DNA from: Escherichia coli
GTDB lineage: Bacteria; Pseudomonadota; Gammaproteobacteria; Enterobacterales; Enterobacteriaceae
Assembly: GCF_048403405.1 (NCBI RefSeq)
Contig: NZ_CP183129.1
DNA: 64,000 nucleotides
Strand: one strand, 5' to 3'
Below are positions 18,601 to 21,600 of this stretch, one piece after another; positions within the stretch are counted from its first letter, which is position 1; every line of letters starts with the position of its first letter. Position numbers: made by a program.

Positions 18601-21600
18601 ATTCTGTGTGGTACAGGAGGCAAAGGTTGTACAACTGGCGACCTCACCACCGAAACCGTATACGGATGGTACATTGATTGCGGCCATGAAGAATGCGTCC
18701 TCCTTTATTACCGATCCGACATTAAAAAAAGTCCTGAAAGAGAATGCGGGGCTGGGGACAGAGGCAACCCGGGCAGGGATCATCACCACGCTGGAAAACA
18801 GGAAATTGATTGTCAGGCAGAAAAAAACACTCCGGGCGACAGACACCGGTTGTCAGCTGATTGATGCCCTGCCGGCAGCCTGTACAGATCCGGGAATGAC
18901 GGCGTTATGGGAACAATCACTCGAGCAGGTTGCACAGGGAAATCTGTCTCTGGATGTGTTTATGCAAAAGCAAATCAGCTGGTTGGCACATCTCATTAAA
19001 AAAGGCGGGGAAATGCCGCTGGCGCTGGATCTGCCACCGATGCCATCCTGCCCGTCGTGTCATGGAAAGATGGTCTTACGGGAGAGCAGTAAAGGCCGTT
19101 TCTGGAGTTGTCAGCGTTATCCGGATTGTAAAGGGAGTGTACCATTACCGGAAAAAATGCAGGGGGTTACCCGGGGGATGAATAAAAGAAAGAAGGCCGT
19201 GAAGAAGAGCATAACAGGACTCTTTACCTGAGTGATAATTACCGTTAGCATAGCTGACGCTAGGGAAAAGCCCCCCGTCATTGCGGCAAAGCCGTAGCGG
19301 AACAACTGCGGTGGCGACAATGAGAAAGTCTGTCTGTCAGCAGGACAGACTTTAAGGCGCATCAACCTCATGAAAACCGCGCCGGAGCTGGTTGAACTCC
19401 TGAGGTTCTTTTTAACATCACAGAGTGGGCGGCACTGTCAGGCGTTATTAACCGTAACGCCTTTTTTATTTGACAAAAAAGTTATTCATCCATGTGACTG
19501 AGTACCTGAATCACCCAGTCCGGGCAGGGCCGGGCGCTGTTTTTTTCCGGTGGGCATAACCAGGATTTTACCGCCCTGACAGAACAGGGCCTGCCTGTTG
19601 TCTGCTGAATGAGTTGAGCCAGGTCTTTTTGTGTCAGATGATGTTGCTGTAACCAGACTTTCAGTTTGTTTCTGTTATCCATTTTATTCTTCTGTGTTTA
19701 TCCTTTTCTCTCTGAACTGCTTTTTTACTTGACAAATAAAAAAAGCAGATTAATCCTTATTCTGCTTATACCGTTGCTTAATGCAACATTGCCAATGCTT
19801 CAGTTGTCTGAGAGAAGCGCCTACGGGTGACAACGATGCCAATGTTCCGGCAATCTGAGAGGAACGCCTACGGGTGATTGCCACTGCCAATCCTCGGGTC
19901 ATCTGAGACGGGAGCCTACGGGCGATGACAGAACTCCGTTCGTCCTTGAAATTGACGGAGGGTGATAACAGAATAGCGTTATCATCAGGATCATCTTATA
20001 CAACGCAAGTCGTCAGTTCGGGAGCGTTCCTGTTACTGACCCCGGTGGGAAACACGTTCCTGCCGAGACGATGTTTCTCATTTTTTTACCTTTTTTATCC
20101 GATGGAGAAACATCATGACCAGCAAAAATAATACAACATCTGAAAATAAATACTTTAATCTGCATGTGAACGGGATTGGGTATTTATCGAATATCCGTCA
20201 GGTTAACGGCCCTAAAGGGCAGTTTTTAACCGCAGTGATTAATGCACTCAGTGGACCGGCTGATAACCCTGTGTATGTTCGTTTTGATACGACCGTTGTC
20301 GGGGAGAATACGGTCTCACTGGTCAGACGGTGTATCAAAGCGGTGGATGAGGACAAAAAAGTCCTAACCGGGTTTACATTAAGTAACCTGGCTTCCGATA
20401 TTTTCACCCTGACAAAAGGTGAGCATGCCGGAGAACAGCGGGTCAGCCTGAAAGCCAGGCTGCTGAATATTGACTGGATTAAAATCGGTAAAGAAGTGGT
20501 ATATAAAGCCGAGAAACACCAGTCAACACCACCAGAGACTGAACAGCCGGTATCCAGAGAGTATGTGGCTGATTCTTTTTAGTCATTAATAAGGAGTTTG
20601 CTGTGACTAAAAATACACAACAACCGGTACATGATGCGTTATTCAAGCAGTTTTTAACGCATCCTGAGAATGCCCGGGATTTTTTCTCGGTGCATTTGCC
20701 GGCCAACATCCTGCCTTTGTGCGATTTAAGTACACTGCGCCTGGAGCCGGCCAGTTTTGTGGAGCGCCGTTTACGTCAGCTGCATTCGGATGTGCTGTAT
20801 TCCGTGCAGATGACGGAAGGGGAAGGGTATATCTACTGCCTGATCGAGCACCAGTCAAAACCGGATCGGTTAATGGGTTTTCGTCTGATGCATTATGCGA
20901 TGTCAGCGATAGCGCATCATCTGAAAAAATCGCCGGCGGATAAGACCCTGCCGTTGGTGGTGCCGTTTCTGTTTTATCAGGGCAGTGTTTGTCCTTATCC
21001 GTACAGCATGAACTGGCTGGACGGGTTCGCCGATCCGGCGCTGGCTCAGCAGCTGTATACCCGGTCGTTTCCGTTAGTGGATTTGAGTGTGCTCAGTGAT
21101 GAGGAAATCCTGACACACAAGGGTATTGCCCTGCTGGAGCTGGTTCAGAAACATATTCGGACCCGCGACGGTTTAATGGCGGTATTGCCGATAATCGCGC
21201 AGATAATTAACTCGCAACACAATACGGTTGACCAGGTGAGGAGTGTGATAGAATATATTGCCTATCAGGGGTATATTCTGGATGAATCCCGCTTTTTCAG
21301 CCAATTGATTGCACTGTCACCGGAGTATAAAACGATGCTGACAACGATTGCAGAACAACTTGAGCAAAAAGGTATCGAAAAAGGTATCGAAAAAGGTATC
21401 GAAAAAGGTATCGAAAAAGGTATCGAAAAAGGTATTGGCCTGGGTGTTGAAAAAGTCGCCCGCTCATTATTACAACAGGGGGTTGATCTGAACATTATTA
21501 TGCAATGTACCGGACTGACCCGGGAAAAGATTGAGTCATTAAAACATTAATCTTTTCTGTTTTTACTCTCAAATGCCGGCATGACTGCCGGCATTTTTTA

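What the first reader, a model, noticed from the sequence alone, without database searches (positions are those of the whole stretch)
19786..19927. Three ~43-bp tandem repeats in the intergenic region upstream of the SSB-position gene
Each unit shares GCCAATG ... TCTGAGA ... GCCTACGGGTGA. The repeats sit between a small divergent HTH-like gene and the gene at 20115, downstream of topB. Position and structure fit a regulatory or origin-type site; ICEs of this family are reported to have oriT near this module, though I cannot place it from sequence alone.
Basis: partly seen in the sequence, partly recalled or inferred. Interest (0 to 1): 0.45.

Follow-up and report, generated by a model that had tools for sequence, protein, structure and literature searches.

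The report
Known STAXI RNA leader motif
The three repeats are a textbook copy of the already catalogued STAXI RNA motif (three small RNA pseudoknots in a row) sitting at the start of the transcript of an SSB-like gene of an integrative conjugative element; it is not a transfer origin, and its exact job is still unknown.

Summary
The repeats are real: three units at 19790-19931, with a period of 47-48 nt rather than 43. Together with a 5' hairpin they match Rfam RF01728 (STAXI) over its full length, at 121 bits against a threshold of 40.5. Each unit is an H-type pseudoknot with a C(UACG)G tetraloop. Across 89 distinct units from Enterobacterales the structure is 95% paired, 10 of 14 pairs show compensatory changes, and G.U outnumbers A.C by 147 to 13, so one strand folds. 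A sigma-70 promoter ends 15 nt before the first hairpin, and this placement holds in 75 of 85 related loci. The motif is therefore the 5' end of an RNA co-oriented with the downstream gene (50/58 loci versus 8/57 in a mirror control). The same cassette precedes unrelated genes: STY4534/DUF3577, ArdC, unknown small proteins, and an integrase via EFASI. It ends in a helix that sequesters the Shine-Dalgarno in 46 of 46 leaders. In the window a terminator-like alternative hairpin plus a U7 tract is also predicted. The best reading is the sensor or platform domain of a default-OFF cis-regulatory leader RNA. The oriT/iteron idea is not supported. The motif is already known and its mechanism is unresolved.

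The parts
19729..19757 (+). Predicted sigma-70 promoter of the STAXI transcript: -35 TTGACA (19729-19734), 17-nt spacer, -10 AATCCT (19752-19757). The predicted start is near 19764, about 9 nt before hairpin P0.
   Evidence: Read from the sequence. In 85 distinct related upstream regions the best sigma-70 match ends 12-17 nt before P0 in 75 cases; -35 is TTGACA in 25. Mean score is 9.16 versus 7.63+-0.85 for shuffles. The generic scan did not list it because its -10 matches only 3 of 6.
19772..19932 (+). STAXI RNA motif (Rfam RF01728), full length.
   Evidence: cmscan gives 121.3 bits against a gathering score of 40.5, E 3.8e-27, model positions 1-153/153. It is the only family above threshold in the window.
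19773..19787 (+). 5' hairpin P0, GUUGC-UUAAU-GCAAC.
   Evidence: Corresponds to Rfam model positions 2-17. It is conserved as GUUGUC..GACAAC or GUCGC..GCGAC directly before the first unit in related loci.
19790..19836 (+). Unit 1. Pseudoknot GCUUC (19797-19801) with GAAGC (19814-19818). Outer stem GUUGUC (19803-19808) with GACAAC (19829-19834). Invariant loop UGAGA (19809-19813). Inner hairpin GCC-UACG-GGU (19819-19828).
   Evidence: Unit covariance model R1 scores 59.5 bits. Pairing scheme tested on 89 units.
19837..19883 (+). Unit 2, the best conserved. Pseudoknot GUUCC/GGAAC, outer stem GCAAUC/GAUUGC, C(UACG)G tetraloop.
   Evidence: R1 scores 66.5 bits; alignment A2.
19885..19931 (+). Unit 3, degenerate. 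Linker CCAAUC, pseudoknot UCCU/GGGA (4 bp), outer stem GUCAUC/GAUGAC, inner hairpin GCC-UACG-GGC.
   Evidence: R1 scores 33.9 bits. Rfam alignment.
19934..19990 (+). 3' extension shared by related leaders. Hairpin P4 (19934-19940 with 19954-19960; loop contains UCCUUGAAA) and hairpin P5 (19961-19969 with 19978-19986). A possible loop-to-tail pairing joins UCCU 19943-19946 with AGGA 19987-19990.
   Evidence: MFE fold. Equivalent hairpins with an AACCUUUGAAA-type loop followed by UUAAGGU occur in other loci. The loop-tail pairing is my reading and was not tested statistically.
20012..20065 (+). Two leader hairpins: A (20012-20017 with 20035-20040, inner 20019-20023 with 20028-20032) and B (20043-20051 with 20057-20065). 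The 5' arm of B contains GGGAAACA (20047-20054), which imitates the SD region.
   Evidence: MFE fold of 19933-20120: -60.2 kcal/mol, z -3.46, 0 of 200 shuffles as stable. Coordinates.
20070..20114 (+). SD-sequestering helix: anti-SD GAUGUUUCUC (20070-20079) pairs with GAGAAACAUC (20105-20114). The SD GGAG lies at 20104-20107, and the loop is U-rich (U7 at 20081-20087, U6 at 20091-20096). Alternative: GGGAAACA (20047-20054) pairs with UGUUUCUC (20072-20079), giving a hairpin followed by U7 that looks like an intrinsic terminator.
   Evidence: segment 20036-20099 folds as one hairpin at -15.2 kcal/mol; the full 20036-20120 refolds to hairpin B plus the SD helix at -25.0. SD pairing is general: 46/46 leaders, P(unpaired) 0.044 versus 0.205, p = 3e-8. 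The partner lies in the 3' arm of the upstream hairpin in 41/46.
20115..20582 (+). Downstream gene: STY4534-family ICE replication protein (DUF3577), 155 aa, probably an SSB/PriB-like OB-fold protein.
   Evidence: NCBIfam NF040584 184 bits (cutoff 160) and Pfam PF12101. The AF2 model has OB-fold strand order. Foldseek matches are weak and mostly SSB/PriB.
19482..19682 (-). Divergent 66-aa ORF, annotated 'hypothetical protein' in RefSeq, with no family match. Its start lies 47 nt from the -35 box of the STAXI promoter.
   Evidence: Not conserved next to STAXI in other loci.

Best explanation
The three repeats plus the preceding hairpin are one copy of the STAXI RNA motif. It is transcribed from its own sigma-70 promoter (19729-19757) and forms the extreme 5' domain of a leader RNA of about 350 nt (roughly 19764-20114) for the STY4534-family, SSB-like gene of an SPI-7-type ICE closely related to elements in Proteus and Providencia. 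Each unit folds as a compact H-type pseudoknot that presents invariant single-stranded CCAAU and UGAGA. The leader ends in an expression platform that is OFF by default. During transcription, GGGAAACA can pair with UGUUUCUC to make a hairpin followed by U7, which looks like a terminator. In read-through transcripts the same UGUUUCUC instead pairs with the Shine-Dalgarno region. I infer that the tandem pseudoknots are a multivalent platform for a factor conserved across Enterobacterales. Candidates are RNA polymerase (as with a put-type antiterminator), the ribosome, or an ssDNA/RNA-binding protein. This factor would decide whether the locks downstream are opened, so that genes needed when the element replicates or enters a new cell are made only then. 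Shown here: motif identity, folding strand, covariation, promoter placement, co-orientation, re-use before different genes, and predicted SD sequestration. Inferred: that the motif acts in cis on the platform, and what binds it.
For: Identity: (121 bits, full length).
Structure. 95.3% of cells are paired, versus 32-55% with slid partners. 10 of 14 pairs show changes on both sides, including 4 of 5 pseudoknot pairs. 235 compensatory cells versus 68+-12 in shuffles (0/500).
Strand and RNA nature. G.U 147 versus A.C 13; tetraloops are UUCG 85, UACG 3 and UGCG 1, all closed by C-G. The RNA-versus-DNA argument of Weinberg 2010 is.
Promoter at a fixed distance.
Co-orientation with an SD-preceded ORF: (50/58 versus 8/57, p 1e-15).
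Same cassette before unrelated genes. These are STY4534 family n=22, ArdC, at least 8 unknown small-protein families, and Integrase_1 via EFASI n=13.
SD sequestration and anti-SD.
Transcript detected by RT-qPCR in E. coli vesicles: PMC12370729.
Abundance in MPF-G ICEs: PMC5587801.
Against: There is no direct transcript or 5'-end mapping for this locus. The window's -10 box is weak (3/6). The STAXI domain lies 110-140 nt from the platform with hairpins in between, which is unusual for a riboswitch-type coupling, and I found no pairing that links the two. In about 40% of arrays the motif is followed by a conserved inverted repeat and EFASI rather than directly by a gene. On small plasmids no protein gene follows at all, so the motif can be kept without a cis target. 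A U-tract after the anti-SD arm is present in only 31 of 46 leaders, so termination is not universal. For the window itself, SD/anti-SD complementarity is only p = 0.067 against shuffles. The whole-region MFE of the three units is not better than shuffles, as expected when the pseudoknots are ignored.
Confidence: 0.6

Rival explanations
1. Free-standing small RNA acting in trans. The STAXI RNA would be terminated at the U7 tract near 20087, giving roughly 320 nt. Its repeated pseudoknots would sequester or decoy a host or defence protein, and the downstream gene would be incidental.
For: Rfam and Weinberg 2010 type it as an sRNA. A terminator-like hairpin plus U7 precedes the gene in the window, and T-rich tracts follow in 31/46 leaders. 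Small ColE1-type and rolling-circle plasmids keep STAXI (with EFASI) with no gene behind it. Tandem repetition is typical of protein-sponge RNAs. Cury 2017 links it to anti-restriction contexts.
Against: A tight, directional association with an SD-preceded ORF at a constrained distance. The SD-sequestering helix covaries with each gene's own SD flank, which makes sense only if the leader and the gene form one unit. No partner protein is known.
Confidence: 0.2
2. Single-stranded DNA element: a single-strand initiation/priming site, or an ssDNA promoter, used when the ICE is transferred or replicates by rolling circle. This would be analogous to ssi/Frpo elements of plasmid leading regions.
For: The context is a replication module (DnaB-type helicase, ParB, STY4528, topB, SSB-like gene). 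Weinberg 2010 raised the DNA possibility. Each loop carries CTG, the DnaG template trinucleotide (my knowledge). The orientation relative to replication is constant on ColE1-type plasmids, 9/9 on the RNAI strand. It is also present on a 3.1-kb Rep_1 rolling-circle plasmid that must have a single-strand origin somewhere.
Against: UNCG tetraloops closed by C-G, with variation only at N, are an RNA signature. The conserved promoter directly upstream is unnecessary for a DNA element. On ColE1-type plasmids the folding strand is the leading-strand template, not the displaced lagging-strand template. On the Rep_1 plasmid it is opposite to rep, although I inferred the nicked strand only from remembered similarity to the pC194 nick region. 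No long hairpin that could rebuild a duplex -35/-10 is conserved.
Confidence: 0.1
3. Double-stranded DNA site, the first reader's view: oriT or iterons bound by a relaxase, initiator or regulator.
For: Tandem direct repeats in an intergenic region of a replication/partition module. A divergent small ORF lies next to it.
Against: Compensatory changes, a pseudoknot and G.U/A.C asymmetry are not expected for duplex sites. There are three dispersed copies per ICE in Proteus and Providencia, each before a different gene. The motif is present on plasmids typed non-mobilizable. The divergent ORF is not conserved beside STAXI elsewhere.
Confidence: 0.03
4. Type III toxin-antitoxin-like array: tandem pseudoknot antitoxin RNA, then a terminator, then a toxin gene.
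For: The architecture matches superficially: promoter, tandem pseudoknot repeats, terminator-like hairpin, small ORF.
Against: Units within one array differ and are maintained by compensatory change rather than being near-identical. The downstream proteins are diverse and include ArdC and an integrase. The STY4534 protein has no PADLOC hit and looks like an OB fold. On small plasmids no gene follows at all.
Confidence: 0.02

Closest known systems
STAXI RNA motif (Rfam RF01728; Weinberg et al. 2010, PMC2864571)
   Same: It is this motif: a 5' hairpin plus three pseudoknot units with UNCG tetraloops, in an Enterobacterales host, next to a topoisomerase gene and an SSB-like gene.
   Different: Nothing essential. 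The tetraloops are UACG rather than the usual UUCG, and the third unit is degenerate. The published description stops at the repeats. The fixed promoter, the P4/P5 extension and the SD-sequestering platform described here are not part of it.
EFASI RNA motif (Rfam RF02957)
   Same: A partner motif. 41 of 43 EFASI copies in my loci lie 450-550 nt downstream of a STAXI array on the same strand.
   Different: Absent from the window. The window's array is of the other class, where STAXI is followed directly by a gene.
HK022 put RNA and other cis-acting processive antiterminator RNAs (my knowledge)
   Same: A promoter-proximal, tandem structured RNA at the 5' end of a transcript, with terminator-like structures between it and the genes. 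No dedicated protein would be needed, which fits a motif that works in many hosts and on tiny plasmids.
   Different: There is no sequence or structural similarity, since put is two stem-loops and not pseudoknots. Antitermination is untested. The universal downstream feature is SD sequestration, not a terminator.
Phage T4 gene 32 mRNA leader (5' pseudoknot nucleating autoregulatory binding of an ssDNA-binding protein; my knowledge)
   Same: A 5' pseudoknot in the leader of an ssDNA-binding-protein gene, with a U-rich stretch before the SD. The logic would couple expression to the amount of free ssDNA.
   Different: The same leader precedes genes that are not SSB-like. There are three pseudoknots rather than one. 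No binding data exist.
ssi / Frpo single-strand promoters in plasmid leading regions (my knowledge)
   Same: A repeated non-coding element placed before ssb-like and anti-restriction genes of conjugative elements.
   Different: Frpo is a long ssDNA hairpin that rebuilds -35/-10 boxes. STAXI has an ordinary duplex promoter upstream and RNA-type tetraloops.
ToxI-type (type III) antitoxin RNA repeats (my knowledge)
   Same: Tandem pseudoknot units followed by a terminator-like hairpin and an ORF.
   Different: The units are not identical, there is no constant toxin partner, and there is no defence-system hit.

Membership tests
STAXI RNA motif (RF01728) | Score to the curated covariance model at or above the gathering threshold, over the full model. 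| tested here: met
   121.3 bits against 40.5, model positions 1-153/153, E 3.8e-27.
STAXI RNA motif (RF01728) | [quoted passage not shown] | tested here: met
   Three units at 19790-19931. Each has an outer stem, an inner hairpin and pseudoknot pairing. The scheme is supported by covariation on 89 units.
STAXI RNA motif (RF01728) | UNCG-type tetraloop in the inner hairpin. | tested here: met
   C(UACG)G in all three units. Family-wide counts are UUCG 85, UACG 3, UGCG 1.
STAXI RNA motif (RF01728) | Host range is Enterobacterales, and neighbours encode SSB, topoisomerase, anti-restriction or integrase proteins. | tested here: met
   The window is identical to E. coli chromosomes. topB lies upstream and the STY4534 SSB-like gene downstream.
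STAXI RNA motif (RF01728) | Is actually made as RNA. | not testable with these tools
   Only indirect evidence: a conserved promoter, and RT-qPCR detection of another E. coli STAXI copy in PMC12370729.
Origin of transfer (oriT) | A nic site cleaved by the element's relaxase, and cis-acting mobilisation. | not testable with these tools
   No assay was possible. I did not retrieve the mapped oriT sequences of ICEclc or PAPI-1 (searches gave no coordinates).
Origin of transfer (oriT) | One site, or at most two, per element, independent of gene orientation. | tested here: not met
   Three arrays per related ICE, each co-oriented with a following gene.
Iterons / duplex protein-binding repeats | Conservation of the repeat sequence itself, with no requirement for intrastrand complementarity. 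| tested here: not met
   Stem sequences diverge but stay complementary (10/14 pairs with double changes). G.U 147 versus A.C 13.
Type III toxin-antitoxin (ToxIN-like) | Near-identical tandem repeats followed by a ToxN/AbiQ/CptN-type endoribonuclease gene. | tested here: not met
   Units differ (78% matches). There is no PADLOC hit for the downstream protein, and downstream genes vary.
ssDNA promoter / ssi (Frpo, G4- or phiX-type) | Function on a defined single DNA strand, via a long hairpin rebuilding -35/-10 or primase/PriA recognition. | tested here: inconclusive
   No conserved long hairpin spans the promoter. The folding strand is the leading-strand template on ColE1-type plasmids. Activity was not testable.
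Cis-regulatory leader with SD sequestration | The SD is paired with an upstream anti-SD, and the pairing is maintained across homologues. | tested here: met
   The SD core is paired in the MFE structure in 46/46 leaders. P(unpaired) is 0.044 versus 0.205 (p 3e-8). The window helix is 20070-20079 with 20105-20114. These are predictions only.

The most novel reading that the evidence does not exclude
STAXI is not a free sRNA. It is the sensor domain of a portable, default-OFF leader cassette (own promoter, tandem pseudoknots, terminator-like hairpin, SD-sequestering helix) that ICEs and plasmids of Enterobacterales place in front of their establishment genes: SSB-like, ArdC, integrase and unknown small proteins. 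The cassette would open only when a conserved host factor is engaged or titrated. Two possibilities are free SSB being drawn away by incoming or replicating single-stranded DNA (the T4 gene 32 logic), or RNA polymerase being made termination-resistant (the put logic). That would be an RNA-level counterpart of the ssDNA promoters of F-like leading regions.
Probability: 0.15. Interest if true: 0.65.

Novelty: already known. Interest (0 to 1): 0.3.

Why it matters
As a finding it is ordinary: any Rfam scan labels it. It still matters in three ways. (1) It removes an attractive but wrong oriT/iteron annotation from this ICE. (2) STAXI has had no assigned function since 2010, although it makes up, together with radC RNA, most RNA genes of MPF-G ICEs and occurs in 717 of 5,426 complete E. 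coli genomes. (3) The comparative work here gives a concrete, testable frame: a fixed promoter, re-use before unrelated establishment genes, and a universal SD-sequestering helix. These turn "unknown sRNA" into a reporter-gene experiment.

Tried and rejected
1. Plain MFE folding of the three units on either strand is no better than shuffles (z -0.26 and +0.81). It is uninformative because pseudoknots are ignored and the units compete with each other.

2. The generic promoter scan missed the promoter. It was recovered only by comparative placement.

3. Type III toxin-antitoxin: rejected.

4. A conserved small protein between STAXI and EFASI: rejected. Recurring peptide fragments appear in different frames, so the conservation is at nucleotide level.

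5. A leader peptide within the units (AUG, 10 codons, then UGA in U1 and U2): rejected. The 'stop' positions covary with the stem and are often UGG or CGG.

6. ssi on the lagging-strand template of ColE1-type plasmids: the folding strand is the wrong one.

7. The nick consensus CTTGATA of the Rep_1 plasmid was not found. Only a remembered similarity to the pC194 nick region was seen around 563-590 of L005.

8. MAFFT could not keep the SD region in register, so anti-SD pairing was tested per sequence instead.

9. Sequence search of the STY4534 protein against PDB found nothing. Foldseek gave only weak SSB/PriB matches.

10. Literature searches for an oriT position in this ICE family, and for STY4534, gave nothing usable. 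The Rahnella plasmid paper annotates ssi, terH and mrs, but not this region.

11. A weak STnc310-like hit at 19366-19426 (E 0.55) is treated as chance.

12. Class-A leaders (before the integrase) do not use SD sequestration. They have a long perfect hairpin instead.
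Full report
**Observation**

The intergenic region between a divergent 66-aa ORF (19482-19682, minus strand) and the gene at 20115 contains three head-to-tail units: U1 19790-19836, U2 19837-19883 and U3 19885-19931. Tandem Repeats Finder gives period 48, 2.5 copies and 78% matches, so the period is 47-48 nt, not about 43. There is also a second complementary pair that makes a pseudoknot (GCUUC/GAAGC, GUUCC/GGAAC, UCCU/GGGA).

**Identity**

A scan against Rfam 15 matches 19772-19932 (+) to RF01728, the STAXI RNA motif, at 121.3 bits (gathering score 40.5), E = 3.8e-27, covering model positions 1-153 of 153. It is the only family above threshold in the whole window.

STAXI (Ssbp, Topoisomerase, Antirestriction, XerDC Integrase) was defined by Weinberg et al. 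[quoted passage not shown] The authors left open whether it acts as RNA or as single-stranded DNA. They favoured RNA because of its UUCG tetraloops, and they marked "cis-regulatory" as unknown. Cury et al. 2017 noted that STAXI and radC RNAs make up 80% of RNA genes in MPF-G ICEs. A 2025 paper detected a STAXI copy by RT-qPCR in E. coli vesicles. No function has been assigned.

The neighbours in the window fit the family's context:
- DNA topoisomerase III (17177-19231)
- an STY4534-family 'ICE replication protein'/DUF3577 (20115-20582)
- a PFL_4669/AcaB-like protein (15840-16583), in a module that RefSeq annotates with an SPI-7-type DnaB helicase, ParB and STY4528

**The element**

The window is identical to the chromosome of 12 E. 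coli strains and present in 27 of 5,426 complete genomes. Its STAXI units recur unchanged in Proteus mirabilis ATCC 29906 and Providencia stuartii NCTC11800. The window has 40.9% G+C. It is therefore an ICE shared with Morganellaceae. Those genomes carry three STAXI arrays spread over about 70 kb. The E. coli records also show three places for the 171-nt query, so the other two copies lie outside this window.

**Is the structure real, and on which strand?**

I scanned one genome per species with a pattern that fixes only the unpaired, conserved parts (CCAATG..TGAGA..GCCTNCGGG). This returned 90 stretches, almost all Enterobacterales. Eighty-nine distinct units were aligned. For the structure with outer stem, inner hairpin and pseudoknot:
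- 95.3% of cells form standard pairs, against 32-55% when partners are slid by 1-3 columns.
- 10 of 14 pairs show changes on both sides, including 4 of 5 pseudoknot pairs.
- 235 cells are compensatory, against 68+-12 in shuffles (0 of 500).
- G.U pairs outnumber A.C by 147 to 13, or 68 to 13 without the invariant G.U at the base of the inner hairpin.

Only the strand that reads like the downstream gene folds. The tetraloop is UUCG in 85 units, UACG in 3 (the window type) and UGCG in 1, always closed by C-G. This is the UNCG family, varying only at N. These features are hard to reconcile with a duplex-DNA site and favour RNA over ssDNA.

**It is the 5' end of a transcript**

In the window, TTGACA (19729-19734), a 17-nt spacer and AATCCT (19752-19757) end 15 nt before hairpin P0 (19773-19787). 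In 85 distinct related upstream regions the best sigma-70 match ends 12-17 nt before P0 in 75 cases. The -35 box reads TTGACA in 25 regions, and most others are TTGNNN variants. The mean score is 9.16 against 7.63+-0.85 for shuffles. Transcription should therefore start a few nucleotides before P0.

**Context classes**

I found 106 arrays. Of the 95 with at least 900 nt of sequence downstream, 40 are followed on the same strand by a conserved inverted repeat (GTCACTT..AAGTGAC) at 200-310 nt and by the EFASI motif at 450-550 nt, often followed by an Integrase_1/Phage_int_SAM_2 recombinase. Forty-one of 43 EFASI copies are preceded by STAXI.

The other arrays, including the window's, are followed after 130-270 nt by a gene. 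Fifty of 58 distinct arrays have an SD-preceded ORF of at least 70 aa on the same strand, against 8 of 57 in the mirror direction (p = 1e-15).

The genes differ: the STY4534/DUF3577 family (22), ArdC anti-restriction (1), and at least eight families of small proteins with no Pfam match. STAXI is thus a portable cassette, not a leader specific to one gene.

**The rest of the leader**

Sequences from different genes share the following:
- a P4 hairpin with a CCUUUGAAA-type loop, and a P5 hairpin (window 19934-19986)
- one or two further hairpins
- directly before the start codon, a helix between an anti-SD (window GAUGUUUCUC, 20070-20079) and the SD region (GAGAAACAUC, 20105-20114; SD GGAG 20104-20107)

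The bases flanking GGAG change together with the anti-SD between loci: AAAC/GUUU, ACAC/GUGU, AUUUA/UAAAU, AAC/GUU. In 46 distinct leaders:
- The SD region's best partner lies in the 3' arm of the upstream hairpin in 41. Mean duplex energy is -14.4 kcal/mol and mean z is -2.1 against shuffled SD regions.
- The SD core is paired in the MFE structure in all 46.
- Mean P(unpaired) is 0.044, against 0.205 with shuffled upstream sequence (p = 3e-8).

In the window the 3' leader 19933-20120 folds at -60.2 kcal/mol, z -3.46. Before the SD is transcribed, the segment 20036-20099 folds as a single hairpin (GGGAAACA 20047-20054 with UGUUUCUC 20072-20079) followed by U7, which looks like an intrinsic terminator. 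With the SD present, the fold switches to hairpin B plus the SD helix (-15.2 versus -25.0 kcal/mol). A T-rich tract follows the anti-SD in 31 of 46 leaders. SD sequestration is therefore universal and termination is frequent but not general. All of this is prediction.

**Most likely mechanism**

I conclude with about 0.6 confidence that the repeats are the 5' domain of a cis-regulatory leader RNA that keeps the downstream gene off by default. The tandem pseudoknots, with their invariant single-stranded CCAAU and UGAGA, look like a multivalent binding platform.

Because the motif is kept on tiny plasmids that encode no ICE protein, the partner should be a conserved host component. RNA polymerase (put-like antitermination), the ribosome or S1, and SSB are candidates. 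I cannot choose among them.

The regulated protein is probably an SSB/PriB-like OB fold:
- The AlphaFold model has b1-b2-b3-a-b4-b5 order with core pLDDT of about 80.
- Foldseek's weak top matches are nearly all SSB or PriB, but none reaches E <= 0.001.
- The family ends in ..Y-x-[ED]-[ND]-S-F, reminiscent of the SSB tip.

This makes a gene-32-type logic, in which expression is coupled to free ssDNA, attractive but unproven.

**Rivals**

- Free trans-acting sRNA or decoy, confidence 0.2. This is supported by the terminator-like hairpin and by small plasmids that carry STAXI-IR-EFASI with no gene behind it. Examples are pHW4594, pHW30076, pOC5aC, a 3.1-kb Rep_1 rolling-circle plasmid, and others.
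- ssDNA priming site or ssDNA promoter, confidence 0.1. This is suggested by the replication context and by the constant orientation on ColE1-type plasmids (9 of 9 on the RNAI strand, from about 3-4 independent lineages). However, the folding strand there is the leading-strand template, the tetraloops are RNA-type, and a normal promoter is conserved.
- oriT or iterons, confidence 0.03, and type III toxin-antitoxin, confidence 0.02. These fail the tests listed in the membership table.

**Verdict**

The interpretation as oriT or origin is not supported. The feature is an already catalogued RNA motif, so novelty is 'already known' and interest is modest (0.3). The residual interest is that the function of STAXI is still open. 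The fixed promoter, the re-use before unrelated establishment genes and the universal SD-sequestering helix documented here make that function directly testable.

Noticed in passing
L005 2600-2700 (-), L007 6380-6430, L008 6330-6380 and 37 other loci; absent from the window: A strongly conserved inverted repeat, GCGTCACTTG..(about 20 nt)..CAAGTGACGC, lies 200-310 nt after STAXI and before EFASI in every STAXI-EFASI module. It could be a protein-binding or recombination site, or part of one long RNA.
   Followed up: partly
L016, L034, L041, L054, L063, L068, L089, L094, L098: 15-25 nt upstream of the SD of Integrase_1 genes: A perfect hairpin of about 20 bp has a stem that differs between loci with complete compensation. 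Its apex is conserved (..UUCCGUUCACACGGACGGAA..). It sits between EFASI and the integrase start. The integrase leaders do not use the SD-sequestering helix.
   Followed up: partly
L002, L003, L004, L043, L066, L069, L073, L079, L086 (ColE1-type plasmids); L005 (NZ_CP059920.1, 3,140 bp, Rep_1): Small plasmids with no ICE genes carry STAXI-IR-EFASI. On ColE1-type plasmids it is always on the RNAI strand, 0.3-1.5 kb beyond the origin. On a 3.1-kb rolling-circle plasmid it takes up almost a third of the plasmid, opposite to rep. Why selfish minimal plasmids keep it is unexplained.
   Followed up: partly
window 20115-20582: The STY4534/DUF3577 'ICE replication protein' is predicted to have OB-fold strand order. 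Its weak structural matches are almost all SSB or PriB. The family ends in Y-x-[ED]-[ND]-S-F, similar to the SSB C-terminal tip. There is no PDB sequence hit and no PADLOC hit.
   Followed up: partly
window as a whole; L029-L031, L090-L092: The window has 40.9% G+C. Its STAXI and leader are identical to those in Proteus mirabilis ATCC 29906 and Providencia stuartii NCTC11800, so this E. coli ICE (27 of 5,426 genomes) is shared with Morganellaceae. Those elements have two further STAXI arrays about 70 kb away: one before an EFASI-integrase pair and one before a 120-aa unknown protein.
   Followed up: partly
window 20603-21550 (+) and onward (L001 11670-15200): Directly after the STY4534 gene comes an Rpn-family recombination-promoting nuclease gene. 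Further on are a truncated Orn/Lys/Arg decarboxylase N-terminal fragment with its speFL leader peptide, fimbrial gene fragments and a transposase remnant. This looks like a cargo or decay zone inside the ICE.
   Followed up: no
window 15840-16583 (+): The PFL_4669-family ICE protein matches Pfam AcaB (transcriptional regulator AcaB, 2.5e-57). It is a candidate activator within the same module and was not examined.
   Followed up: no
window 19797-19834 and 19844-19881: U1 and U2 each contain an in-frame AUG, 10 codons and UGA (MLQLSERSAYG*, MFRQSERNAYG*). The stop is not conserved across the family, because it covaries with the stem, and no SD precedes the AUG. It is probably a by-product of the conserved CCAAUG and GGGUGA.
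   Followed up: yes
window 19720-19747: A local inverted repeat, CTGCTTTTTTA..TAAAAAAAGCAG, brackets the -35 hexamer of the STAXI promoter. It is not seen in the Providencia paralogue (L031), and its significance is unknown.
   Followed up: no
window 19440-19462 and 19518-19535 (+): Two terminator-like hairpins with T-runs lie downstream of topB. One is inside the antisense of the 66-aa ORF. A weak STnc310-like hit (19366-19426, minus strand, E 0.55) is probably chance.
   Followed up: no
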